Shown: piece after piece, positions 3,868 through 29,321 of the stretch | Position numbering within the stretch: the first letter of the stretch is position 1 | Layout of the letters: each line of letters begins with the position of its first letter | Origin: a virus | Taxonomy: Duplodnaviria > Heunggongvirae > Uroviricota > Caudoviricetes | IMG/VR virus record: IMGVR_UViG_2563366875_000004 | Span: 1 to 42,427 of that record | Direction: 5' to 3' (one strand) | DNA length: 42,427 nucleotides | The notes under the pieces: model-generated | What the model saw: the letters and a program-made list of their open reading frames with translations, nothing else | Told to the model about the DNA's origin: nothing | Databases searched by the model: none | Program-made: the position numbers and the translations under genes

Positions 3868-4071
3868 TTACGGTGCTGTTTTAAGTCCCGCCGGGATTTC
3901 GTTATTGTCCATGTGAATAACTTTATCAACCGGATAACAGTTGCCGGGAATTTTCTGTTCCGCTGCGGCAGCCATGCATTCTTCCATTGAATCACGTATG
4001 TCAATAATAAGGTCAAGCGGCTCGCCCGTATTAAGAAAAACCGTCAGAACGAGTGCAAATGATGTATTCAT
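3868..4071 (-). CDS. Hypothetical small protein (67 aa), leftward early operon
   Basis: Internal ATG at 4069-4071 preceded by AAAGGA; ATGA overlap with stop of upstream ORF (translational coupling). Confidence 0.45.
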   Translation of the reverse strand: MNTSFALVLTVFLNTGEPLDLIIDIRDSMEECMAAAAEQKIPGNCYPVDKVIHMDNNEIPAGLKTAP

Positions 4072-4256
4072 TGCCAGTATCCTTTTTGCATCAGACGTAA
4101 ACGGGCCAGCATTGAAACAATGCATATTTGATTTAATAGCTCCCGTTCGTGTTTTCTCTTATTAATGGCATCTTCAGTAAATACAGGGTTACTGATTTTG
4201 ACACCAATTTCAAAGCAACCTTCAGACGTATTAACGTTTGGTAATAACGTTTCCAT
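4068..4256 (-). CDS. Hypothetical small protein (62 aa), leftward early operon
   Basis: ATG at 4254-4256 preceded by GAGGA at 8 nt; coupled to downstream ORF. Confidence 0.45.
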   Translation of the reverse strand: METLLPNVNTSEGCFEIGVKISNPVFTEDAINKRKHERELLNQICIVSMLARLRLMQKGYWQ

Positions 4257-4277
4257 TATCGCGTCCTCAACAATGAA

Positions 4278-4431
4278 TTTTGTGATGCGGTGCCTGGTGC
4301 CTCCAGGTGACGTTAACCAGTTAACAATTAACGCCGGATACAGAGAACCCACCCATAAGAACCAATACGGAAGTCAACTGGCCTTTTTAACTGTTCCGCG
4401 TGCGCTGAGCCGCATTCACCGCATCACAAAA
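4278..4431. repeat. Perfect 15-bp inverted repeat pair TTTTGTGATGCGGTG / CACCGCATCACAAAA separated by 124 bp
   Basis: Read directly from sequence (4278-4292 and 4417-4431); internal GTTAAC-containing sub-palindromes; lies in an ORF-free stretch. Confidence 0.6.
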
Positions 4432-4827
4432 TTCACTTTAAAAAGGGCGGACATCAGCCAGCAATGAAAACTGATGCCGCCAAAAGGTAATCAACATGGG
4501 TTGTTGCAGCGGGGTTGTCACTCAAGCGTATGGTCAACCAGACAACCCGGTGCTCCACAGGGGAGGGAGAATAGTACCCCTGCCATACTTACCGCCGCGC
4601 CATTTCGCGGATTGCCACAACCGGAAGCGTACGGTCGAATTAAATTTAACGACAAGCCTCATAGGTGAAGGCCTTCGCCGTACGCTTTCGTGTTATGCCC
4701 TGACTTTTCAGGGATATATCCTTTCAGTAAACTGTCAGTGCCGGATGCTCACCCGTGTCCGGCGCACGACCACACGTGGCAGCGTGTTGGTCTCCATTTT
4801 TAACCCAGAACCCAAATGGAGGATAAA

Positions 4828-5007
4828 ATGTCAGAACAATTTAACCCCCTGCGGAGACCTGCCTCAGCAGCACAACAAGTCGTGCTTGAAGTTGTTCGCG
4901 CGGGTAAGTTGTACGAAAAAACACAACTTTCTGAACTTTTTACACACATGCTTGACCATTACCGTGCTGAGGCGAAACGCCTGGAGCAGGAAAATAAAGC
5001 TCAATAA
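4828..5007 (+). CDS. Small hydrophilic protein (59 aa) encoded convergently to the leftward operon
   Basis: ATG at 4828 preceded by GGAGGA at optimal spacing; protein-like helical composition; strong intrinsic terminator 20 nt downstream. Confidence 0.45.
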   Translation: MSEQFNPLRRPASAAQQVVLEVVRAGKLYEKTQLSELFTHMLDHYRAEAKRLEQENKAQ

Positions 5008-5137
5008 AAGCTGCTTTAATGATCTGAGCCAGTGTGATTGCTGGCTCTTTTTGTGTTGAATCCAGGTCTGCTAATTTTTGACGAAGACAGTCTGCAGCTA
5101 TAACCTGCAAATCTGCAGGTAAATCTTTAAATTCCAT
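4940..5137 (-). CDS. Hypothetical small protein (65 aa); 3' end overlaps the plus-strand small gene and terminator antisense
   Basis: ATG at 5135-5137 preceded by GAGG; either this ORF or the convergent plus-strand ORF may be the real one in the overlap. Confidence 0.3.
   Translation of the reverse strand: MEFKDLPADLQVIAADCLRQKLADLDSTQKEPAITLAQIIKAAFIELYFPAPGVSPQHGNGQACV
5026..5052 (+). terminator. Rho-independent terminator (plus strand only)
   Basis: GAGCCAG-8 nt loop-CTGGCTC stem followed by TTTTTG; on the minus strand the hairpin is followed by no U-tract. Confidence 0.6.
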
Positions 5138-5159
5138 TATTAGCCTCGTTGGTTAGCTA

Positions 5160-5378
5160 TTAACGCGGGTATGTAATCATTCTGGCAATGCTTAATGCCG
5201 CTGCTTTTTCCAGCCTGGTTATATCTTTTTCCAGAGCGGACAGATTTTCAGCCTGCTTAGTCCTGGCTTCATTGGCCCATTTCAGATCCTGCGCTGCATT
5301 AATTTTCTGGCGCATCCACTCATAAAGTTCATCATCGGTATAGTCTGGCGCGATGATGACGGGTTCTCGTTTCTGCAT
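5160..5378 (-). CDS. Hypothetical small protein (72 aa), leftward early operon
   Basis: ATG at 5376-5378 preceded by GAGGAA. Confidence 0.5.
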   Translation of the reverse strand: MQKREPVIIAPDYTDDELYEWMRQKINAAQDLKWANEARTKQAENLSALEKDITRLEKAAALSIARMITYPR

Positions 5379-5407
5379 ACTGATTCCTCGCGGTGCTGTT
5401 TCGCTTA

Positions 5408-5536
5408 TCAGCCGTTAGATTTTGCCGAACTGGAAAGCGCCTGTTTAAACTCACTGAAGCTGAGAGCTTCTTCGCCTTCGGCAAGGCCTTCGAAGTATTC
5501 TTCGTAAGCCTTTTCCATGATTGCGTCGAAATCCAT
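5408..5536 (-). CDS. Small acidic protein (42 aa, MDFDAIMEKAYEEYFEGLAEGEEALSFSEFKQALSSSAKSNG)
   Basis: Not in the 60-aa ORF track; found by hand translation; ATG 8 nt after stop of the upstream ORF; strongly acidic composition. Confidence 0.3.
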   Translation of the reverse strand: MDFDAIMEKAYEEYFEGLAEGEEALSFSEFKQALSSSAKSNG

Positions 5537-5537
5537 A

Positions 5538-5693
5538 TCACTCACCTGAATTTCTTTCCAGCCAGCGATGCGCGCCAGATTCGGTTTTAAACGTTTTGCT
5601 TTTGGTATACGTCATCGCGGTGAATGTGCCGTCCTGGTTGGGAAACACGCCGTACACCAGAGATTCGTTGTTGCCAAGATCGATAGTATCCAT
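5538..5693 (-). CDS. Hypothetical small protein (51 aa), first ORF downstream of pL-like promoter
   Basis: Internal ATG at 5691-5693 preceded by GAGGT; the longer 82-aa form in the track has no RBS. Confidence 0.35.
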   Translation of the reverse strand: MDTIDLGNNESLVYGVFPNQDGTFTAMTYTKSKTFKTESGAHRWLERNSGE

Positions 5694-5770
5694 GCTGACC
5701 TCATTTCCCCTTAACGCCGGGGTAGCGGAACTGTTTGCTGAGAACACCGTGCGGTGTCTTGATGGATGGT

Positions 5771-5822
5771 AATTTAGTTTTCTCATGAAAATTGGTCAAG
5801 TGTTTTTGATGAGAAAACTCAA
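5771..5822 (-). promoter_or_regulatory. pL-like promoter (-35 TTGACC, 17-nt spacer, -10 TAAATT on minus strand) flanked by two operator copies
   Basis: Operators ATGAGAAAACTCAA at 5809-5822 and inverted TCATGAGAAAACTAA at 5774-5788; same 13-mer recurs between repressor and cro. Confidence 0.5.
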
Positions 5823-5885
5823 TATTTAATGCAAAATAAAGCCAATACATTGAAATGTAAGGCTTTAAAATTAGTGAAGGGGGGG

Positions 5886-6344
5886 TTATTGATGTTTGTT
5901 ACGTTTGCGAGCTTCTAGTAGCTCGGTGAATAGGCGATTAAAATTCTCAACGCGGGCACGGAGTTCGCTGATTTGTGCTTGCTGCTCTGATTTTGGAAGT
6001 GCGCGATACAATCGCAACATCTCCAACTCATCTTCCGATAAGTCTAAGGCGCTGTTGAGTGCAACTGGTGGATCTGGTGTTTTATCCTCGTCACCAAACA
6101 GTATCCAAGTTGGTGAACATTGCAATACCTCAGCCAGGCGATGCAAATTTTGCCCGCGCGGGGCTGTATGGTCGCTTTCCCATAGTGAAATTGATGAGCC
6201 AGATACGCCAGCAGCTTTGCTTAAATCGTTTTGACTTAAACCAACCTGTTTGCGTCTTTCTCTAATTCGTTGACCTAAAGTTTTCTCGTTCATATTTAGA
6301 TATCTTAATAACCCTTGACTTGAGATTCCTTGAGTGATTACCAT
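5886..6344 (-). CDS. Prophage repressor, HTH XRE/CI-type, without a LexA-like peptidase domain (152 aa; alternative start at 6293)
   Basis: HTH motif QVGLSQNDLSKAAGVSGSSISLWE; divergent from cro-like gene; C-terminal part is helical and lacks a Ser/Lys autocleavage module. Confidence 0.8.
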   Translation of the reverse strand: MVITQGISSQGLLRYLNMNEKTLGQRIRERRKQVGLSQNDLSKAAGVSGSSISLWESDHTAPRGQNLHRLAEVLQCSPTWILFGDEDKTPDPPVALNSALDLSEDELEMLRLYRALPKSEQQAQISELRARVENFNRLFTELLEARKRNKHQ

Positions 6345-6356
6345 TGAGAAAACTCA
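6315..6356 (+). promoter_or_regulatory. pR-like promoter (-35 TTGACT) with operator TGAGAAAACTCA directly downstream
   Basis: Operator 6345-6356 abuts the repressor start codon and lies upstream of the cro RBS GGAGGGG. Confidence 0.5.
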
Positions 6357-6370
6357 ACTTTGGAGGGGTG

Positions 6371-6598
6371 ATGTTTAAATCAGACGTAATTAATTTTTAT
6401 GGGACGAAAGCCAAAGTAGCGAAAGCTGCTGGTGTTGATCCATCTGCTGTTTCTCAATGGGGAGAACTGGTTCCTGAAGGTCGCGCGATGCGCCTGCAAG
6501 AGGCATCTGGCGGGGAGCTTCAGTACGACCCCAAAGTTTATGACGAATATCGTAAGGCAAAGCGGGCGGGGCGGTTGAACAATGAAAATCACCCCTGA
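6371..6598 (+). CDS. cro: Cro-like / YdaS-like HTH regulator (75 aa)
   Basis: ATG at 6371 after GGAGGGG; small HTH protein divergent from repressor; the track ORF begins at an upstream TTG. Confidence 0.75.
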   Translation: MFKSDVINFYGTKAKVAKAAGVDPSAVSQWGELVPEGRAMRLQEASGGELQYDPKVYDEYRKAKRAGRLNNENHP

Positions 6599-7133
6599 AC
6601 AGGTTTGTGAGGCTCTGGATGCCTGGGTATGCCGACCAGGAATGACACAGGAGCAGGCGACGATATTAATCACGGAAGCATTCTGGGCTCTGAAAGAACG
6701 CCCGAACATTGATGTTCAACGCGTCACGTTTGATGATGGCGCGGTTGATCAACGGGCACTGGGCGTTAACCGGGTGAAGATATTCGAACGCTGGAAAGCT
6801 ATCGACACCAGGGATAAGCGTGAAAAATTCACGGCGCTGATTCCGGCAATTATGGAGGCTATCCGGATCAGTGATTTCAGGTTGTATCGTGAAATTACTG
6901 ACGGAAAAAGCATTACGTACATGATCGCCGGGTTAAACAAAGAATATGGCGATGTGGTGGAGTCCGGGCTGCTTTTTGCGGATCCAGCTGTTGTGGAACG
7001 TGAGACTGACGAGCTTATAGAAAAAGCTATTGCTTTCAAGCATGCGTATCGTCAGCAATACCAACATTACTTTGCAGATAAACAAATATCTGTCTGGGGT
7101 TCGTATGAGTATCGATGCACTACGATGGGCTAA
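6582..7133 (+). CDS. YdaT-like protein (CII functional analogue family), 183 aa
   Basis: Follows cro with overlap; segment IFERWKAIDTRDKREKFTALIPAIMEAI resembles the conserved YdaT core as I recall it. Confidence 0.6.
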   Translation: MKITPEQVCEALDAWVCRPGMTQEQATILITEAFWALKERPNIDVQRVTFDDGAVDQRALGVNRVKIFERWKAIDTRDKREKFTALIPAIMEAIRISDFRLYREITDGKSITYMIAGLNKEYGDVVESGLLFADPAVVERETDELIEKAIAFKHAYRQQYQHYFADKQISVWGSYEYRCTTMG

Positions 7134-8145
7134 AAAGGTGAAAACCGGCAGTTCATCCAGTAAGTCAGTATTGACCTGGCTTGCTGATATGTGCGGTGCC
7201 GATTTGTGTGCATACCCGTCTGTATCTGCACTGGCAGAAGTAACGGAACTGAACAAAAAGACTGTGCAGGACAGCTTACGACACCTGATGGAGATTGGGT
7301 TAATTGTTGATACCGGTGAGAGAAAAGGCCGAACAAAGCAAATCGTGGTGTACCGACTTATCGGTGTTGAAGAAAGTGTTGCCGAGCCTGAATACACCCA
7401 AAAACGGGAGTCTTTAAAGGTGGGTAAAATTGGTGCTGTTAATAAAAACAGTACCGAAAACGGTTATGTTTCAGCACTAAACAGACCCAAAAACGGAACT
7501 CTTTTCTGCATGGAAAATAACCAAAGACACCCAATTTTTCCATCAAAGACACCCAAAAACGGATCACGGAACCCAAAGGAACCCAAAGATCTAAACCCCA
7601 CACATAACACACGCGAGAGTGCTCCGACCAGTGAGCAGGAAGTTTTGTCGTTACAGGCAGCACCCCCTGTATTCCTGGATGGCCTGAGCGAACCCATCGG
7701 AAAATTTCCGATGACCGATAGCTGGTATCCGTCACGGGATTTTCGACGACGGGCTGCGTTGTGGGGGATGGCTTTGCCGGAGACAGAATTTACACCTGCT
7801 GAACTTGCCGCCTTCCGGGACTACTGGACAGCGGAGGGGAAAGTGTTTACGCAGATTCAGTGGGAGCAGAAATTCGCCCGTCACGTAAATCACGTCAGGG
7901 CGCAGGTTAAACCAGTCAGCAAGGGGGTAAACCATGCAGCAGCACCAGGTGGCACCGCATCACGGGCAGTTCAAGAAATTCGGGCAGCACGTGAGCAGTG
8001 GGAACGTGAAAACGGATTTATCAGCGACGGAAACGGCCTGGAAGCTGTGGGAGCTCATGGGGGAGGTTTATTCGAACCGCTGGACCCAGAAGAATGGGGC
8101 CGCACCTTCGAAGCTCTGGATTGCACAGATTGGCGCGATGACTGA
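7105..8145 (+). CDS. Replication initiator, lambda O-like: N-terminal HTH replication domain plus C-terminal DnaT-like domain
   Basis: N-terminus SIDALRWAKK...LTWLADMCGADLCAYPSVSALAEVTELNKKTV fits the HTH replication-protein pattern; low-complexity linker carries iterons; start chosen at internal ATG 7105. Confidence 0.7.
   Translation: MSIDALRWAKKVKTGSSSSKSVLTWLADMCGADLCAYPSVSALAEVTELNKKTVQDSLRHLMEIGLIVDTGERKGRTKQIVVYRLIGVEESVAEPEYTQKRESLKVGKIGAVNKNSTENGYVSALNRPKNGTLFCMENNQRHPIFPSKTPKNGSRNPKEPKDLNPTHNTRESAPTSEQEVLSLQAAPPVFLDGLSEPIGKFPMTDSWYPSRDFRRRAALWGMALPETEFTPAELAAFRDYWTAEGKVFTQIQWEQKFARHVNHVRAQVKPVSKGVNHAAAPGGTASRAVQEIRAAREQWERENGFISDGNGLEAVGAHGGGLFEPLDPEEWGRTFEALDCTDWRDD
7394..7590. 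repeat. Iteron-like direct repeats (putative replication origin) inside the initiator gene
   Basis: ACCCAAAAACGG at 7396-7407, 7485-7496 and 7551-7562; degenerate copy at 7452-7463; tandem ACCCAAAG at 7571-7588; CAAAGACACCCAA twice. Confidence 0.5.
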
Positions 8146-12049: not shown

Positions 12050-12199
12050 TTTTATACCTTTTGTGTTGTGTGAAGGAGCAGTATAGTCAGAAATGAGACA
12101 AGTGAAAGGGGATAGAAAGTAATAGTTTGTTTTTGTAGAATTGCTGCGGGTGCTTGAGGCTATCTGCCTCAGGCATGAACACCAAAAGGCAGATAGAGA

Positions 12200-12303
12200 A
12201 AAGCCCCAGTTAACATTACGCGTCCTGCAAGACGCTTAACATTAATCTGAGGCCATATCTATGCGACACATAGAGATTAGCCTCTTACGGACCGAAAGGT
12301 CAA
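12200..12303 (-). ncRNA. Sok-like antisense RNA with its promoter (approximate bounds)
   Basis: Minus-strand -35 TTGACC (12298-12303) and -10 TAATCT (12274-12279), 18-nt spacer, reading antisense across the mok start; 3' end not defined. Confidence 0.4.
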
Positions 12304-12320
12304 GGAGAAGCAGGCTATGA
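12261..12320 (+). CDS. mok-like upstream leader ORF (19 codons) coupled to hok
   Basis: ATG 12261; stop TGA overlaps the hok ATG (CTATGA). Confidence 0.3.
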   Translation: MRHIEISLLRTERSRRSRL

Positions 12321-12472
12321 AGCAGCAAAAGGCGATGTTAATCGCCCTGATCGTCATCTGTTTAACCGTCATAGTGACGGCACTGGTAACGAGGAAAGAC
12401 CTCTGCGAGGTACGAATCCGAACCGGTCAGACGGAGGTCGCTGTCTTCACAGCTTACGAACCTGAGGAGTAA
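12317..12472 (+). CDS. hok: Hok/Gef-family type I toxin (51 aa)
   Basis: MKQQKAMLIALIVICLTVIVTALVTRKDLCEVRIRTGQTEVAVFTAYEPEE closely matches Gef/HokC as recalled; GGAG RBS; mRNA 5' segment 12146-12159 is complementary to 3' segment 12522-12536 (fbi-like). Confidence 0.8.
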   Translation: MKQQKAMLIALIVICLTVIVTALVTRKDLCEVRIRTGQTEVAVFTAYEPEE

Positions 12473-12542
12473 GAGACCAGGCGAGGGAGAAATCCCTCGC
12501 CACCTCTGATGTGTCAGGCATCCTCAACGCACCCGCACTTAA

Positions 12543-12567
12543 CCCGCTTCGGCGGGTTTTTGTTTTT
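12543..12567 (+). terminator. Rho-independent terminator of the hok mRNA
   Basis: CCCGC-TTCG-GCGGG stem-loop followed by TTTTTGTTTTT. Confidence 0.6.
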
Positions 12568-12692
12568 ATTTTCAACGCGTTTGAAGTTCTGGATGGTGCC
12601 GGAATAGAATCAAAAATACTTAAGTAGCGCGCAGGGAGAAGAGGGATGGACCCCAAATGGGGGAGTGCTATTTATCTGGAAGGATTCTGTTG

Positions 12693-12953
12693 ATGAAAAT
12701 CGAAGAATTACGTGAAATTTTTAGTGAAGATGGCCTCTATACTGTGCGCGTTGAGAATGGCGCTATTGTCAGCCACTGCCGTATTAAATGTTTACAGTCT
12801 CAACAAAGGAAGAGTGGAACTGCGTTAATTCATTTGGTGGATGGGCTTGTGACGGATGGTTTTATTTTGCGTGCAAATGAATTTGTCACATCGTTGCCGT
12901 CTCTGAAAGAAGCTGGGATTAAGGCTGGTTTTTCTGCTTTTGAAGATGTGTGA
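12693..12953 (+). CDS. Hypothetical protein (86 aa), nin-like region
   Basis: ATG at 12693 after GGA; AT-rich codon usage suggests a foreign insert. Confidence 0.45.
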   Translation: MKIEELREIFSEDGLYTVRVENGAIVSHCRIKCLQSQQRKSGTALIHLVDGLVTDGFILRANEFVTSLPSLKEAGIKAGFSAFEDV

Positions 12954-14361: not shown

Positions 14362-14820
14362 ATGCGTATAGAGTTTGTTTTGCCTTACCCGCCGACGGTG
14401 AACACCTACTGGCGACGTCGTGGCAGCACATATTTTGTATCAAAAGCCGGTGAGCGTTATCGCCGTGATGTGGCGCTTATTGTTCGCCAGCAGCGACTGA
14501 AATTAAACCTGTCCGGAAGGCTGGCGATAAAGATTATTGCAGAGCCACCGGATAAGCGCCGTCGTGACTTGGACAATATTCTGAAAGCACCACTGGATGC
14601 ACTGACACATGCGGGGTTGCTTATCGACGACGAGCAGTTTGATGAAATCAATATTGTGCGCGGACTGCCTGTTCCTGGTGGTCGGTTGGGTGTGAAGATT
14701 TACGAAATTACAGGTGATAACGATGGCGCGAGATATTCAGCAGGTTATGGAGCGGTGGGGAGCATGGGCTGCAAACAATCACGAAGATGTGTCATGGGCG
14801 TCAATCGCTGCTGGTTTTAA
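14362..14820 (+). CDS. rusA: RusA-family Holliday junction resolvase (with C-terminal extension overlapping Q)
   Basis: N-terminal [19 protein letters not shown] and [26 protein letters not shown] are RusA hallmarks. Confidence 0.8.
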
Positions 14821-15109
14821 AGGATTAATCCCGCCGAAAGTGAAATCACGCCCTCAGTGTTCTGATGATGATGCAATGATAATTTGTGGCTGTATGGCCC
14901 GGTTGAACAAGAAAAATCAGGATTTGCACGATTTGTTGGTGGATTATTACGTAGGTGGAATGACTTTTATGGGGCTGGCACGAAAGCATGGGTGTTCGGA
15001 TACCTGTATTGGCAAGCGCCTGCAGAAAGCGGAAGGGGTTATTGATGGCATGTTGATGATGCTTGATATCCGACTGGAGATGGACCGATACGTAGAACGA
15101 ATTATGTAG
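14723..15109 (+). CDS. Short Q-like late antiterminator (QuuD-like, 128 aa)
   Basis: ATG after AGGTGA; size and position immediately upstream of a pR'-like promoter and terminator. Confidence 0.65.
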
Positions 15110-15113
15110 GCGC

Positions 15114-15143
15114 TTGACCAGACACATTGTCCGGGGCTATATT
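15114..15143 (+). promoter_or_regulatory. pR'-like late promoter (-35 TTGACC, 18-nt spacer, -10 TATATT)
   Basis: Directly after the Q stop; followed about 65 nt later by a terminator, as for lambda pR'/6S RNA/tR'. Confidence 0.4.
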
Positions 15144-15206
15144 TCCGACGCAACCGCAAAATCGGTTGTCGGGATTAGCACCCCGGATGTTTACGGAGCG
15201 ATATGA

Positions 15207-15226
15207 GACGCGCCCGCGTCTTTTTT
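15207..15226 (+). terminator. tR'-like intrinsic terminator
   Basis: GACGC-tetraloop-GCGTC followed by TTTTTT. Confidence 0.5.
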
Positions 15227-15390
15227 CATATCGTTTGCACAGTCACATTCGCGATTAATGGCGGGCTGTGTGGGGGAGCCGAAAGGCTCGCCGGTTTCCG
15301 TACCCGGTAGTGCTAACCCCGCACAGTTCGCCACCACGATGATTAGCACCTGACGGTGGCGATAATGTCCAAATGTACGGAGTTATCGTT

Positions 15391-15954
15391 ATGACCACTC
15401 AGATTTCTGTCGAAACTCTTTCCCCAATTACACACAACCAAATTCCCGTTATCACTACCGAGTTACTGGCACAGCTTTACGGTACAGATTCAGATAACAT
15501 CAAAAAGAATTATTCGCGTAACGCAGATCGTTTTTATGAAGGTAAGCACTTCTACAAAGTGATTGGTGATGAACTAAAGAATTTGCGGGTGACTTTAAGT
15601 CACTCACAAAATCCCATCTCTCCCAAAACCCGCTCGCTCATACTCTGGACAGAACGCGGAGCAGCCCGCCACGCAAAAATGCTGGAAACCGATCAGGCAT
15701 GGGAGGTATTCGAAAAACTGGAAGATTGTTATTTCAGCCGAAAACAACCAGCTGCAGCACAAAACACATCTATCGAAAATGATGGATGCGCATTACTGAT
15801 CCACTTCGATAAACACGGTCAGGTCGACTTCACGGAAAAAGTACCCGCCGATGCGATGGTATGCACTCTGGAACGGTTCAAATTTTATCTGGAACAACGC
15901 GGCTGGATCGTTGCCCGTAAAGAACAACTGGTGGAATGGTTGATGCGGTTTTAG
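15391..15954 (+). CDS. ORF6N/Rha-like DNA-binding domain protein (candidate antirepressor or regulator), 187 aa
   Basis: N-terminal pattern ITTELLAQLYGTDSDNIKKNYSRNADRFYEGKHFYKV plus LILWTERGAARHAKMLETDQAWEVFEKLE resembles ORF6N-type domains as recalled; GGAG RBS. Confidence 0.55.
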   Translation: MTTQISVETLSPITHNQIPVITTELLAQLYGTDSDNIKKNYSRNADRFYEGKHFYKVIGDELKNLRVTLSHSQNPISPKTRSLILWTERGAARHAKMLETDQAWEVFEKLEDCYFSRKQPAAAQNTSIENDGCALLIHFDKHGQVDFTEKVPADAMVCTLERFKFYLEQRGWIVARKEQLVEWLMRF

Positions 15955-16956: not shown

Positions 16957-17032
<76 letters not shown>

Positions 17033-17035
17033 TAT

Positions 17036-17110
<75 letters not shown>

Positions 17111-19178: not shown

Positions 19179-19478
19179 ATGATGGAAAAAACAGAAAACA
19201 AACCGATTGTAATTGGTGCTGATGCTGCTCCGTTTAAGTTTGAGTTGTCTCAACTGGTGGAGATGCGCATCAGTGATGAATGGGGTGAGGTTAAAGCCCG
19301 TGCGCAGTATGCGGATGGCGAAAACCAGTACTTGATCCACTACAAGGCAGCTGACGGTCGCGCCACGACGGAGTGGTTTGGTGAGTCAATGCTGGAAGCA
19401 ACAGAAGATGATCGTCATCCAGGTTGCCCGGTATTTGCTGGTATGGAATTACCGGAAGGTGCAGTCGTTACTGAGTAA
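19179..19478 (+). CDS. Hypothetical protein (99 aa)
   Basis: AGGAGACG RBS before ATGATG; acidic soluble protein. Confidence 0.5.
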   Translation: MMEKTENKPIVIGADAAPFKFELSQLVEMRISDEWGEVKARAQYADGENQYLIHYKAADGRATTEWFGESMLEATEDDRHPGCPVFAGMELPEGAVVTE

Positions 19479-27666: not shown

Positions 27667-27831
27667 ATGTTTGTGAAACCCCTGAAAGGGCGGTCGGTTC
27701 CTGACCCTGCCCGTGGAGATCTTTTGCCTTCTGACGGGCGAAATGTGGAAGAAAACAGCTACTGGCTCCGCCGTATAGCGGCGGGTGATGTGGTACGTGT
27801 TAAACAGGATAAGGCTAAAGAATCATGACAA
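27667..27831 (+). CDS. Small protein (54 aa) preceding the sheath gene, DUF2635-like
   Basis: Hand-translated MFVKPLKGRSVPDPARGD...; stop overlaps the sheath start. Confidence 0.4.
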
Positions 27832-29321
27832 TAAGTTTTAGTGCTGTTCCGTCGAATACGCTGGTGCCGTTGTTCTACGCCGAGATGGACAATTCTGCGG
27901 CAAATACAGCGGTGACCAGCGCGCCTGCATTACTGATTGGGCATGCCAGCAACGATGCCGCCATTGAGGTTAACAGCCTGGTGCTGATGCCGTCGGCAGA
28001 TTATGCCCGTCAGATTTGTGGGGCCGGGAGCCAGCTGGCGCGTATGGTTGACGTCTACCGTCAGACAGATCCTTTCGGTGAACTGTATGTTATTGCAGTA
28101 CCGGAAGCCAAAGGGGCGGCGGCGACGGTCAGGGTGACAGTTACCGGAGAAGCAGAGGAAAGCGGCACCCTGAGTCTGTATGTCGGGCGCTCCCGTGTAC
28201 AGGTGCCTGTGGTGAATGGCGATGATGCTACTGCGGTTGCCACCGCGATTAAGGAAGCGGTAAACGGGGTTATCACCCTGCCGTTTGCGGCGTCATCTGA
28301 TGCAGGTGTGGTGACGCTGACTGCCCGCCATAAGGGGCTGTATGGTAACGAGTTGCCTGTCTGCCTGAATTATTATGGTTCTGGTGGTGGTGAGATTCTG
28401 CCTGCGGGGCTTCAGGTTGTGACGGAAGCCGGAACTGCGGGTAGTGGCGCGCCTGATCTTACTGCCGCTGTTGCTGCTATGGGCGATGAGGCATTCGACT
28501 TTATCGGTCTGCCGTTCAACGATGCCGCCTCCATCAATATGATGATGACCGAAATGAATGACAGCAGCGGTCGCTGGAGTTATGCGCGCCAGTTATACGG
28601 GCATGTCTATACCGCAAAACTGGGAACGCTGTCAGAGCTGGTTGATGCCGGAGATATGCATAATCAGCAACATATCACGCTTGCCGGTTACGAAAAAGAA
28701 ACCCAGTCGCCTGTCGATGAACTGGTTGCCAGTCGCCTTGCCCGTGAAGCGGTATTTATCCGCAATGATCCGGCCCGTCCGACACAGACGGGGGAACTGG
28801 TGGGGATGCTTCCGGCACCGAAAGGTAAGCGATTCATCATGACAGAGCAGCAGACCCTTTTATCTCACGGCGTGGCGACGGCTTATGTGGAAGGCGGCAC
28901 GTTGCGGATCCAGCGTTCCGTAACCACATACAAAAAGAATGCATATGGCGTGGTAGACAACAGCTATCTGGACAGTGAAACACTGCATACCAGCGCATAT
29001 GTTCTTCGCAAACTGAAATCGGTCATCACAGGCAAGTACGGACGCCACAAGCTGGCAAATGATGGTACCCGTTTTGGTCCTGGGCAGGCGATTGTTACTC
29101 CTGCCGTTATCAAAGGGGAGCTTCTGGCGACATATCGTCAGATGGAGCGTGCCGGTATTGTGGAAAATTACGATCTGTTTAAACAGTATCTGATAGTTGA
29201 GCGTGATGCGGATAACCCGAACCGACTGAACACGCTGTTCCCGCCGGATTATGTTAACCAGTTACGTGTCTTTGCGGTGGTTAACCAGTTCCGTCTCCAG
29301 TATTCAGAGGAGTCAGCATAA
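27825..29321 (+). CDS. Contractile tail sheath protein (Mu L-like)
   Basis: 498 aa; followed by tube, chaperone and tape measure in Mu-like order. Confidence 0.8.
   Translation: MTISFSAVPSNTLVPLFYAEMDNSAANTAVTSAPALLIGHASNDAAIEVNSLVLMPSADYARQICGAGSQLARMVDVYRQTDPFGELYVIAVPEAKGAAATVRVTVTGEAEESGTLSLYVGRSRVQVPVVNGDDATAVATAIKEAVNGVITLPFAASSDAGVVTLTARHKGLYGNELPVCLNYYGSGGGEILPAGLQVVTEAGTAGSGAPDLTAAVAAMGDEAFDFIGLPFNDAASINMMMTEMNDSSGRWSYARQLYGHVYTAKLGTLSELVDAGDMHNQQHITLAGYEKETQSPVDELVASRLAREAVFIRNDPARPTQTGELVGMLPAPKGKRFIMTEQQTLLSHGVATAYVEGGTLRIQRSVTTYKKNAYGVVDNSYLDSETLHTSAYVLRKLKSVITGKYGRHKLANDGTRFGPGQAIVTPAVIKGELLATYRQMERAGIVENYDLFKQYLIVERDADNPNRLNTLFPPDYVNQLRVFAVVNQFRLQYSEESA

What the first reader, a model, noticed from the sequence alone, without database searches (positions are those of the whole stretch)
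5771..6371. Immunity region with a peptidase-less repressor and three copies of a TGAGAAAACTCA operator
The repressor has only an HTH domain and a helical tail, so RecA-mediated autocleavage is unlikely and induction probably needs an antirepressor or another trigger. The operator 13-mer occurs at 5809-5822 and 6345-6356, plus an inverted imperfect copy at 5774-5788, bracketing pL-like and pR-like promoters. I found no LexA box in the window.
Basis: partly seen in the sequence, partly recalled or inferred. Interest (0 to 1): 0.5.

Follow-up and report, generated by a model that had tools for sequence, protein, structure and literature searches.

The report
DicA-type prophage immunity switch, new specificity
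This is the on/off switch of an E. coli lambda-like prophage, built around a short non-cleavable repressor of the already studied DicA (Qin prophage) family; the three repeated sites are real operators with a specificity of their own, so the finding is correct but of a known kind.

Summary
TGAGAAAACTCA(A) occurs exactly at 5810-5822 and 6345-6357, and with one mismatch, inverted, at 5774-5785. These are the only close copies in the immunity region. Such a triple arose in 2 of 2000 random regions.

The real unit is a 14-bp dyad, TTGAG-N4-CTCAA. It overlaps the -10 of a leftward promoter, lies upstream of that promoter's -35, and covers the start of the rightward promoter.

The repressor (5886-6293, minus strand, 135 aa) is 56% identical to E. 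coli K-12 DicA over its full length. The divergent Cro is 71% identical to DicC. The leftward operon is ydfA-ydfB-ydfC-DicF-dicB.

In seven loci with this recognition helix the three sites are invariant while their flanks diverge. In 13 further family loci, other helices go with other dyads at the same positions.

DicA is known to lack RecA-dependent cleavage and to be inactivated by the antirepressor Rem. It is absent from two phages of the same immunity type.

A strong LexA-like site does exist (7434-7453), but it lies inside the replication origin.

Verdict: a new member of a known kind, of low to moderate interest.

The parts
5886..6293 (-). Repressor, 135 aa, DicA family. HTH domain plus a C-terminal helical hairpin; no peptidase domain.
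   Evidence: Pfam HTH_3 E 1.2e-16 and no S24 family. 56% identical to K-12 DicA over 128 aa, both proteins 135 aa. N-terminal domain matches the P22 C2 N-terminal domain, E 2.6e-24, and by Foldseek rmsd 0.8-1.1 A. AlphaFold model mean pLDDT 84. PGAP annotates the identical 135-aa protein in strain STEC005.
6371..6598 (+). Cro-like regulator, DicC homologue, 75 aa
   Evidence: Pfam P22_Cro E 1.1e-17. 71% identical to K-12 DicC, with the differences concentrated in the HTH region.
6344..6357 (.). Right operator, positional equivalent of Qin Oc: TTGAGAAAACTCAA, a perfect 5+5 dyad starting at the last base of the pR-like -10 hexamer (6339-6344) and covering the expected transcription start
   Evidence: ATTGAGAAAACTCA (6343-6356) is invariant in 7 loci of this immunity type, including two Buttiauxella loci. 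Qin Oc, TTGTTAGTCATAACTAACAA, occupies the same position and binds DicA in vivo.
5809..5822 (.). Left operator, distal site: ATGAGAAAACTCAA, starting 10 bp upstream of the pL-like -35
   Evidence: The 12-nt core TGAGAAAACTCA is invariant in 7 loci while the flanks diverge. Family members place a site at the same relative position.
5773..5786 (.). Left operator, proximal site: TTTAGTTTTCTCAT (reverse complement ATGAGAAAACTAAA). It overlaps the -10 and spacer of the pL-like promoter. Its centre is 36 bp from the centre of the distal site.
   Evidence: inverted repeat I1. The core TTAGTTTTCTCA is invariant in 7 loci. The 34-36 bp spacing between the two left sites is kept in the eleven family loci whose two best matches are the two left operators.
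6318..6335 (.). Candidate middle operator (Om-like). The left half, TTGAG, is perfect; the right half, CTTGA, matches 3 of 5. It lies in the spacer of the pR-like promoter, 24 bp centre to centre from the right operator.
   Evidence: Read directly from the sequence. The TGAG-TTCCTTG block is conserved in 7 loci. Inferred only: Qin Om did not bind DicA when tested alone.
6293..6310 (.). Near-palindrome TATTTAGATATCTTAATA over the repressor start codon. It is a candidate weak operator (Oa-like). It also holds the likely -10 (TAAGAT, 6307-6302, minus strand) of the repressor's own promoter, which would give a leaderless or nearly leaderless mRNA.
   Evidence: Inverted repeat I14. A 22-nt block is invariant in 7 loci. 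Similar sequences sit at this position in other immunity types, which fits a promoter element better than a specificity site. Inferred.
5771..5799 (-). pL-like promoter, equivalent to Qin dicBp: TTGACC-17-TAAATT
   Evidence: The same -35 context is present in Qin.
6315..6344 (+). pR-like promoter, equivalent to Qin dicCp: TTGACT-18-TACCAT
   Evidence: The -35 hexamer TTGACT is identical in Qin.
5837..5867 (-). Hairpin followed by a U-rich tract after the repressor stop codon; a likely terminator that separates the repressor gene from the pL-like promoter
   Evidence: RNA fold -11.3 kcal/mol, z-score -3.67. The CACATTGAAA core is conserved in 7 loci.
4068..5693 (-). Leftward operon under the left operators: ydfA (5538-5693), ydfB (5408-5545), ydfC (5160-5378), a DicF-like RNA (4445-4496) and dicB (4068-4262)
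   Evidence: Pfam DUF1391 E 1.4e-28 and DicB E 1.5e-38. DicF scores 39.4 bits, below the Rfam gathering score of 48, E 1.7e-6. Gene order is the same as in K-12 Qin.
12693..12953 (+). Rem homologue, 86 aa; the most likely antirepressor. It has its own promoter-like site (12581-12610) after a terminator (12541-12558).
   Evidence: 70% identical to Qin Rem. The upstream region is nearly identical to that of Qin rem. Promoter and terminator scan. Present in all four genomes of this immunity type that were examined. Qin Rem derepresses dicBp 165-fold.
15150..15954 (+). IsrK RNA (15150-15226), C4-type RNA (15254-15338) and the ORF6N protein, an AnrP homologue (15391-15954), directly downstream of Q (14714-15109). 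An accessory, RNA-gated candidate antirepressor.
   Evidence: Rfam isrK 74 bits and C4 77 bits. Pfam ORF6N and Q. The layout is the same in Gifsy-1, and the protein is 53% identical to Gifsy-1 STM2616. Absent from mEp460 and HannyBb.

Best explanation
Region 5771-6371 is the immunity switch of a Qin/Gifsy-like lambdoid prophage, and its repressor is a heteroimmune member of the DicA family.

Repression (inferred from position and homology). Repressor dimers bind a 14-bp dyad, TTGAG-AAAA-CTCAA, through an N-terminal domain of the P22 C2 type.
- Two sites lie on the left, 36 bp apart. One overlaps the -10 and spacer of the leftward promoter. The other lies just upstream of its -35. Together they shut off the ydfABC-DicF-dicB-exo-xis-int operon.
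- One strong site on the right covers the start of the rightward promoter. It shuts off cro, the CII/YdaT-like gene and the replication genes.
- Two weaker sites (6318-6335 and 6293-6310), at 24-25 bp spacing, probably complete a three-part right operator. There the repressor would activate, and Cro would shut off, the repressor's own weak promoter, which gives a leaderless transcript. This follows what was shown for Qin DicA at Oc.

Induction (inferred). The protein has no peptidase domain, so it cannot be inactivated by RecA-stimulated self-cleavage. The most likely inducer is the small antirepressor Rem (12693-12953), perhaps by binding the conserved C-terminal helical hairpin. The Cro-dependent bistable flip seen in Qin would then lock in the lytic state. 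The AnrP-like ORF6N protein, behind the IsrK and C4 RNAs, is a second, dispensable antirepressor candidate.

Shown here: the sequences, the statistics, conservation, covariation with the recognition helix, and the homologies.
Inferred: binding, repression, activation, and which antirepressor acts.
For: - Homology. The repressor is 56% identical to DicA over its full length and Cro is 71% identical to DicC. Gene order is the same as in Qin.
- Statistics. The repeated sites exceed chance.
- Promoters. The only two promoter-like sites in the region coincide with the operator sites.
- Footprint. Seven loci share this recognition helix, including two Buttiauxella loci with 75-76% identical repressors. 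In all of them TTAGTTTTCTCA, TGAGAAAACTCA and ATTGAGAAAACTCA are invariant while neighbouring intergenic bases vary.
- Covariation. In 20 family loci, each HTH type has its own dyad (for example TGTTAG-N6-CTAACA in Qin and CTTAGG-N4-TCTAAG in PPompW). The dyads sit at the same places: about 50-58 nt before the repressor ATG, plus two sites 34-36 bp apart after the stop codon.
- Binding precedent. Qin Oc, at the equivalent position, binds DicA in vivo, and a single base change abolishes binding.
- DNA-binding domain. The N-terminal domain matches the P22 C2 N-terminal domain.
- No cleavage route. There is no S24 peptidase domain, and the model shows only a helical tail.
- Antirepressor. Rem is 70% identical to Qin Rem, which derepresses dicBp 165-fold. 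Rem is present in window, STEC005, mEp460 and HannyBb.
Against: - No binding or expression data exist for this immunity type. All functional steps rest on homology and position.
- Qin Om and Oa did not bind DicA when tested alone, so the two weak right-hand sites may not be operators. The 6293-6310 block is also conserved across immunity types, which fits a promoter element.
- The signal that turns on rem is unknown even in Qin. Spontaneous, urea-induced and heat-induced switching in Qin were all independent of Rem.
- The window's Rem differs from Qin Rem at 30% of positions, and it has not been tested against this repressor.
Confidence: 0.85

Rival explanations
1. The ORF6N protein (15391-15954), not Rem, is the antirepressor that inactivates this repressor.
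For: It is the homologue of Gifsy-1 AnrP: 53% identity, with the first 27 residues identical and the same Q-isrK-C4-anrP layout. In Gifsy-1, ectopic AnrP raised transcription of the antQ operon and induced the prophage, and its translation is unlocked by IsrK (PMC4825925). PHROG families covering it are annotated 'anti-repressor'.
Against: It is absent from mEp460_ev081 and HannyBb, functional phages whose repressors are 96% identical to the window's and which do carry Rem. It lies downstream of Q, a pR'-like promoter and a terminator, so most of its expression should follow derepression rather than cause it. Its C-terminal half has diverged from Gifsy-1 AnrP. No AnrP target has been identified biochemically.
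Confidence: 0.25
2. No antirepressor is needed. The switch flips because the repressor is intrinsically unstable or loses DNA binding under stress such as heat or denaturants, and Cro then locks the lytic state.
For: In Qin about 1% of cells switch spontaneously. Switching is increased by urea and by temperatures of 39 C or more. It depends on DicC and is independent of Rem and RecA. DicA binds Oc better at 25 C than at 37 C. The window has the full DicA/DicC-type pair.
Against: Rem is kept intact, with its own promoter, in all four genomes of this immunity type, two of them free-living phages. That argues it is used. The Qin measurements come from a defective prophage and a different immunity type.
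Confidence: 0.3
3. Induction depends on the SOS response through LexA, as in Gifsy phages, using the LexA-like box at 7434-7453.
For: TGCTGTTAATAAAAACAGTA scores 21.5 bits. That is above the median of the known E. coli LexA boxes used to build the matrix and above the best hit in each of 30 random windows.
Against: The site lies inside the replication gene, within the array of CCCAAAAACGG iterons, and not upstream of rem or the ORF6N gene. It is not kept in the one diverged homologue found, Edwardsiella phage EPP-1. No LexA-like site lies near the rem promoter, which is nearly identical to that of Qin, and mitomycin C does not induce Qin dicBp. PGAP annotates no dinI gene in the matching STEC005 prophage. 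mEp460 and HannyBb have no comparable site.
Confidence: 0.05
4. The three copies are chance repeats, or remnants of a duplicated coding start: each copy could be read as (M/L)-R-K-L-N.
For: All three copies begin with ATG or TTG followed by AGA AAA CT(C/A) AA.
Against: Such a triple arose in 2 of 2000 random regions. The copies are invariant in seven loci while the flanks vary. By the promoter positions, the start codons at 5786 and 6344 lie upstream of the expected transcription starts. Other immunity types have different dyads, without start codons, at the same positions.
Confidence: 0.02

Closest known systems
DicA-DicC-Oc immunity locus of the E. coli K-12 cryptic prophage Qin (repressor DicA, Cro-like DicC, promoter dicBp, antirepressor Rem)
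   Same: - The repressor is 135 aa with 56% identity over its full length, including the conserved C-terminal helical part.
- The Cro is 71% identical.
- The leftward operon is the same: ydfA-ydfB-ydfC-DicF-dicB.
- The promoters are in the same places and the operators are at the same positions relative to them.
- Rem is present, with a nearly identical upstream region.
   Different: - The recognition helix differs (SGSSISLWES here, SHVSVSQWER in Qin), and so does the operator: TTGAG-N4-CTCAA here, TGTTAG-N6-CTAACA in Qin. The two should therefore be heteroimmune.
- The window has the gene content of a complete prophage (integrase to tail genes), whereas Qin is a remnant.
- Nothing about this immunity type has been tested experimentally. 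Its operator sequence was not found in the searchable literature.
Phage P22 C2 repressor N-terminal domain and its operators
   Same: The N-terminal 68-71 residues match at E 2.6e-24 and about 47-48% identity. The model superposes on the P22 c2-operator complexes at 0.8-1.1 A. The arrangement is also the same: divergent repressor and Cro genes with a spacer carrying several operators.
   Different: P22 C2 is 216 aa, with a C-terminal self-cleaving domain that responds to RecA. This protein replaces that domain with a helical hairpin of about 50 residues.
Gifsy-1/-2/-3 repressors (GfoR, GftR, GfhR) and their LexA-controlled small antirepressors (Lemire et al. 2011, PMC3121763)
   Same: These are short repressors that are not cleaved and are inactivated by small antirepressor proteins. 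That paper lists DicA as a member of the group. In both cases the antirepressor gene is preceded by a terminator and its own promoter.
   Different: In Gifsy phages the antirepressor sits in a dinI-antirepressor-irsA operon behind a LexA box. Here no LexA-like site scores anywhere near rem. PGAP annotates no dinI gene in the matching STEC005 prophage.
Gifsy-1 antQ-isrK-orf45-anrP locus (Hershko-Shalev et al. 2016, PMC4825925), related to the C4 RNA/ant module of phages P1 and P7
   Same: The order Q, IsrK RNA, C4-type RNA, ORF6N protein is the same. The protein is 53% identical, and the promoter and RNA elements align.
   Different: The C-terminal third of the protein has diverged. The short upstream reading frame differs. 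Whether this protein acts on the window's repressor is untested.
SinR-SinI of Bacillus subtilis, and the arbitrium phage repressor with its small antirepressor AimX
   Same: The overall architecture is the same: an HTH domain plus a C-terminal helical domain, which in those systems is the target of a small antagonist protein. These structures appear among the Foldseek matches to the whole model.
   Different: Outside the HTH there is no meaningful sequence similarity, and the full-length superpositions have high rmsd. This is an analogy only.

Membership tests
DicA/GfoR-type non-cleavable lambdoid repressors | About 135 aa, with full-length similarity to DicA including the conserved C-terminal segment (LQCSPTW-LFGD ... 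LP-SEQ ... RAR-NFN-LF) | tested here: met
   56% identity over 128 aa with K-12 DicA, both proteins 135 aa. 45 invariant columns across 17 family members, most of them in the C-terminal half.
DicA/GfoR-type non-cleavable lambdoid repressors | No S24 (LexA/CI-type) peptidase domain and no cleavage module | tested here: met
   Pfam reports only HTH families. The model shows only helices 87-98 and 101-134 after the HTH. About 65 residues remain after the HTH. No solved-structure match extends into a peptidase domain.
DicA/GfoR-type non-cleavable lambdoid repressors | A divergent DicC (P22_Cro-type) gene, and a leftward ydfABC-DicF-dicB operon downstream of the repressor gene | tested here: met
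   DicF falls below the Rfam gathering score (39.4 against 48 bits), so it counts as a diverged copy.
DicA/GfoR-type non-cleavable lambdoid repressors | An inverted-repeat operator at the start of the Cro promoter and two operators at the leftward promoter, bound by the repressor | tested here: inconclusive
   Sequence, position, conservation and covariation with the recognition helix are all met. Actual binding cannot be tested with these tools.
DicA/GfoR-type non-cleavable lambdoid repressors | Inactivation by a small antirepressor (Rem or GfoA type) | not testable with these tools
   A Rem homologue is present (70% identity) and co-occurs with this immunity type in 4 of 4 genomes. Its activity on this repressor is untested.
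Lambda CI / P22 C2 / LexA-type self-cleaving repressors | A C-terminal S24 peptidase domain with a Ser/Lys dyad and an Ala-Gly (or Cys-Gly) cleavage site in the linker | tested here: not met
   No S24 match. P22 C2 aligns only with residues 1-72. The linker DEDKTPDPPVALNSALDL contains no Ala-Gly.
Gifsy-type SOS induction (LexA-controlled antirepressor operon) | A LexA box overlapping the promoter of a dinI-antirepressor operon | tested here: not met
   The LexA matrix scan gives no hit near 12500-12700 or 15100-15400. The two best sites lie inside coding sequence, at 7434 and 28081. PGAP annotates no dinI gene in the matching STEC005 prophage.
IsrK/C4-gated AnrP module (Gifsy-1; related to P1 immI) | IsrK RNA and a C4-type RNA between Q and an ORF6N-type protein homologous to AnrP | tested here: met
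   isrK 74.3 bits (gathering score 50) and C4 77.2 bits (gathering score 45). The Gifsy-1 locus has the same elements. The protein is 53% identical to Gifsy-1 AnrP.

The most novel reading that the evidence does not exclude
This immunity type, found in about 15% of complete E. coli genomes and in two free-living phages, may be induced entirely outside the SOS pathway. Two antirepressors of different kinds would do this: Rem, and an AnrP protein gated by the IsrK and C4 RNAs. Both would dock on the C-terminal helical hairpin, which is nearly invariant across the DicA family. A single signal could then fire several heteroimmune DicA-type prophages in one cell. In addition, the family offers a readable recognition code (helix sequence against dyad) across at least eight specificities, all at fixed operator positions.
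Probability: 0.25. Interest if true: 0.5.

Novelty: new member of a known kind. Interest (0 to 1): 0.25.

Why it matters
[quoted passage not shown] The 1.2-kb region of this immunity type is at least 80% covered in 797 of 5426 complete genomes.

Knowing the operator of this particular specificity (TTGAG-AAAA-CTCAA) makes several things directly testable:
- heteroimmunity between this type and Qin;
- cross-talk through Rem;
- the unanswered question of what signal induces prophages of the DicA type.

The mechanism itself is already known from Qin and the Gifsy phages, so the gain is incremental.

Tried and rejected
1. A fourth partial copy (core AGTTTTCTC, 6274-6287, inside repressor codons 2-5; inverted repeats I15/I16). 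It is not conserved in the Buttiauxella loci, which read AGCGTCATTTCA and AACGTCATTTCA. Treated as a by-product of the coding sequence.

2. A perfect TTGAG-N4-CTCAA at 19240-19253. It lies inside an ORF with no Pfam match, has a different spacer, and has no counterpart anywhere in mEp460 or HannyBb. Probably chance.

3. A weak PHROG link (phrog_340, E 2e-4) between the C-terminus of the ORF6N protein and Rem. BLASTP finds nothing and hhalign gives probability 0.07. Rejected.

4. Reading the repeats as the start of small proteins (MRKLN). Rejected on promoter geometry and on comparison with other immunity types.

5. The LexA-like box at 7434-7453 as an induction signal. It lies among the origin iterons and is not conserved in phage EPP-1. 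A second site at 28081 (16.7 bits) lies inside the tail sheath gene.

6. The 152-aa ORF as the repressor. Rejected in favour of the 135-aa form, on the alignment with DicA and the PGAP annotation.

7. Literature search for the operator string. It returned only unrelated primer sequences.

It was repeated with alignment A2.

9. The genome-contig scan labelled some loci as Bacillota, Veillonella or Collinsella metagenome bins (L008, L009, L014). Their sequences are typical E. coli prophage DNA, so these are probably binning errors. They were used only as sequence copies.
Full report
**1. What is in the sequence**

The region holds a leftward 135-aa ORF (5886-6293, starting MNEKTL) and a divergent 75-aa ORF (6371-6598), separated by 77 bp.

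The 13-mer TGAGAAAACTCAA occurs exactly at 5810-5822 and 6345-6357. A copy with one mismatch lies inverted at 5774-5785. Allowing two mismatches, the other matches in the 42-kb window are at 543, 9545 and 19241, and none of them is in the immunity region.

Read with its flanks, the unit is a 14-bp dyad, TTGAG-AAAA-CTCAA. It is perfect at 6344-6357. The copy at 5809-5822 is ATGAG-AAAA-CTCAA. The copy at 5773-5786, on the other strand, is ATGAG-AAAA-CTAAA.

**2. Is it more than chance?**

In 2000 Markov-1 random regions of the same length and composition, an exact repeat of 13 nt or more appeared in 0.95%. Two exact 12-mers plus a third copy with at most one mismatch appeared in 2 of 2000.

I also ran an unbiased search for the 14-mer best shared between the repressor-cro spacer and the 130 bp after the repressor stop. 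It returned TTGAGTTTTCTCAA with 3 summed mismatches. All 300 shuffles gave 5 or more.

The only two promoter-like sites in 5400-6700 are a leftward TTGACC-17-TAAATT (5799-5771) and a rightward TTGACT-18-TACCAT (6315-6344).
- Site 5773-5786 overlaps the leftward -10 and spacer.
- Site 5809-5822 starts 10 bp upstream of the leftward -35.
- Site 6344-6357 starts at the last base of the rightward -10 and covers the expected start.

**3. What the genes are**

- The repressor matches only HTH families (HTH_3, E 1.2e-16) and no peptidase.
- It is 56% identical over its full length to E. coli K-12 DicA, which is also 135 aa.
- The divergent gene is of the P22_Cro type and 71% identical to DicC, with the differences in the HTH.
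- Downstream of the repressor, on the same strand, lie ydfA (DUF1391, E 1.4e-28), ydfB, ydfC, a diverged DicF (39.4 bits, E 1.7e-6) and dicB (E 1.5e-38). This is the order found in Qin.
- Rightward follow a YdaT/CII-like gene and a DnaT-domain replication gene.

The same 1.2-kb region is at least 80% covered in 797 of 5426 complete E. coli genomes. It is 99% identical in prophages next to ompW in goat STEC strains, and about 92% identical in the phages mEp460_ev081 and HannyBb.

**4. Comparative evidence that the sites are operators**

Seven loci carry essentially the same recognition helix: the window, mEp460, HannyBb, two metagenome copies, and two Buttiauxella genomes whose repressors are only 75-76% identical. 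In all seven, the blocks TTAGTTTTCTCA, TGAGAAAACTCA and ATTGAGAAAACTCA are invariant, while the bases between and around them differ.

Across 20 family loci, each HTH type has its own dyad at the same positions. One site ends about 50-58 nt before the repressor ATG. Two more follow the stop codon, 34-36 bp apart.
- Qin-type loci: TGTTAG-N6-CTAACA.
- PPompW-type loci: CTTAGG-N4-TCTAAG.
- Citrobacter-type loci: TTAG-N6-CTAA variants.
- Several others.

In Qin the site at the position of 6344-6357 is Oc. Oc binds DicA in vivo, a single base change abolishes binding, and from there DicA represses dicC and activates dicA (PMC3441716).

The repressor's N-terminal domain matches the P22 C2 DNA-binding domain (E 2.6e-24; the model superposes on the c2-operator complexes at 0.8-1.1 A).

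Fixed position, sequence covarying with the recognition helix, and conservation within one specificity are what operators are expected to show.

**5. Further elements in the spacer**

Two more elements can be proposed.
- 6318-6335 has a perfect left half-site (TTGAG) and a poor right half. It lies 24 bp, centre to centre, from 6344-6357.
- 6293-6310 (TATTTAGATATCTTAATA) is a near-palindrome 25 bp further on, over the repressor start codon.

The spacing resembles the three-part right operators of lambdoid phages, and Qin has Om and Oa at these places. However, Qin Om and Oa did not bind DicA on their own. The 6293-6310 block is also similar in other immunity types.

On the repressor strand that block contains TAAGAT, 8 nt before the ATG, and no Shine-Dalgarno sequence is visible. 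I therefore read it mainly as the -10 of a weak, activated promoter that gives a leaderless or nearly leaderless repressor mRNA. This is inference.

A hairpin followed by a U-tract after the repressor stop (5837-5867; -11.3 kcal/mol, z-score -3.67) probably terminates the repressor transcript before the leftward promoter.

**6. How induction most likely works**

The AlphaFold model (pLDDT 84) has the HTH at residues 6-66, a proline-rich linker, and helices 87-98 and 101-134. There is no room for a peptidase, and no sign of one.
- DicA lacks the Ala-Gly bond, and dicBp is not induced by mitomycin C.
- The Qin protein Rem derepresses dicBp 165-fold.
- Spontaneous, urea-induced and heat-induced switching depends on DicC but not on Rem or RecA (PMC10448788).
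- Gifsy repressors of the same group are not cleaved and are inactivated by small antirepressors under LexA control (PMC3121763).

The window encodes a Rem homologue (12693-12953, 70% identical). It is preceded by a terminator (12541-12558) and a promoter-like site (12581-12610). This upstream region is almost identical to the one upstream of Qin rem. Rem is also present in STEC005, mEp460 and HannyBb. The Qin paper itself notes that mEp460_ev081 carries DicA and Rem homologues.

**7.

This gene lies directly after Q (14714-15109), a pR'-like promoter (15114-15143) and a terminator (15205-15222). Rfam identifies the short transcript as IsrK (15150-15226) and the next element as a C4-type RNA (15254-15338).

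Gifsy-1 has the same order, and its protein STM2616 (AnrP) is 53% identical, with the first 27 residues identical. In Gifsy-1, IsrK acting in trans unlocks translation of orf45-anrP. AnrP then raises transcription of the antQ operon and induces the prophage (PMC4825925).

Against it as the main inducer:
- It is absent from mEp460 and HannyBb.
- It shows no similarity to Rem.
- Its position suggests it is expressed mostly after derepression.

I rank it as an accessory antirepressor candidate.

**8. LexA**

I built a matrix from twenty E. coli LexA boxes recalled from memory. It gives one strong hit, TGCTGTTAATAAAAACAGTA at 7434-7453 (21.5 bits; the best of 30 random windows scored 18.4), and a weaker one at 28081.
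- The first lies inside the replication gene, between CCCAAAAACGG iterons, and is not kept in the one diverged homologue found.
- The second lies inside the tail sheath gene.
- Neither is near rem or the ORF6N gene.

'No LexA box' is therefore wrong as written. The practical conclusion, that no LexA-controlled inducer is visible, stands.

**9. Comparison with what is known, and novelty**

This is a member of the DicA/DicC immunity family. It has a recognition helix and an operator of its own, so it is expected to be heteroimmune to Qin.

The features that define the family are met by sequence. Binding and antirepression could not be tested. The defining feature of CI/C2/LexA-type repressors, the S24 domain, was tested and is not met. 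So was the Gifsy-type LexA box at the antirepressor operon.

The operator string was not found in the searchable literature. The architecture and the mode of induction are published for Qin and the Gifsy phages, and mEp460_ev081 has already been noted as a functional relative. I rate it a new member of a known kind, interest 0.25.

Noticed in passing
window 7434-7453 (context 7390-7560): A strong LexA-box-like palindrome, TGCTGTTAATAAAAACAGTA (21.5 bits), sits between CCCAAAAACGG-type iterons inside the DnaT-domain replication gene. This is probably the phage origin. The palindrome is not conserved in the homologous region of Edwardsiella phage EPP-1, which has five ACACCCAAAAACGG iterons.
   Followed up: partly
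window 15150-15338: An IsrK RNA (which looks like the short pR' transcript ending at a terminator) and a C4-type RNA lie between Q and the ORF6N/AnrP gene, exactly as in Gifsy-1. In Gifsy-1 the Rfam 'c4-a1b1' target family overlaps IsrK, which suggests that IsrK carries the decoy sites for the C4 RNA.
   Followed up: partly
window 12148-12472: A hok/sok-type toxin-antitoxin pair (sok RNA at 108 bits; hokD 12317-12472) lies immediately upstream of the rem terminator, as in Qin.
   Followed up: no
window 4445-4496 (-) and 4274-4435: The DicF homologue scores below the Rfam gathering threshold (39.4 against 48 bits), so it has diverged from K-12 DicF. Next to it lies a long inverted repeat (about 4274-4290 paired with 4417-4435), and there is a weak STnc100 match at 4224-4447.
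   Followed up: no
window 19240-19253: A perfect TTGAG-N4-CTCAA dyad with a different spacer (TTGT) lies inside an ORF with no Pfam match, 13 kb from the immunity region. It has no counterpart in mEp460 or HannyBb and is probably chance.
   Followed up: partly
window 27825-29321 and 16957-17110: The late region encodes a 498-aa protein that looks like a contractile-tail sheath, whereas mEp460 and HannyBb, which share the immunity region, have lambda-like non-contractile tail genes. The immunity module is therefore shuffled between different virion types. tRNA-Thr and tRNA-Gly genes lie downstream of the ORF6N gene.
   Followed up: no
L008, L009, L014 (genome-contig loci): Contigs carrying typical E. 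coli prophage immunity regions are filed in public metagenome bins named Bacillota, Veillonella parvula and Collinsella. These are most likely binning contamination.
   Followed up: no
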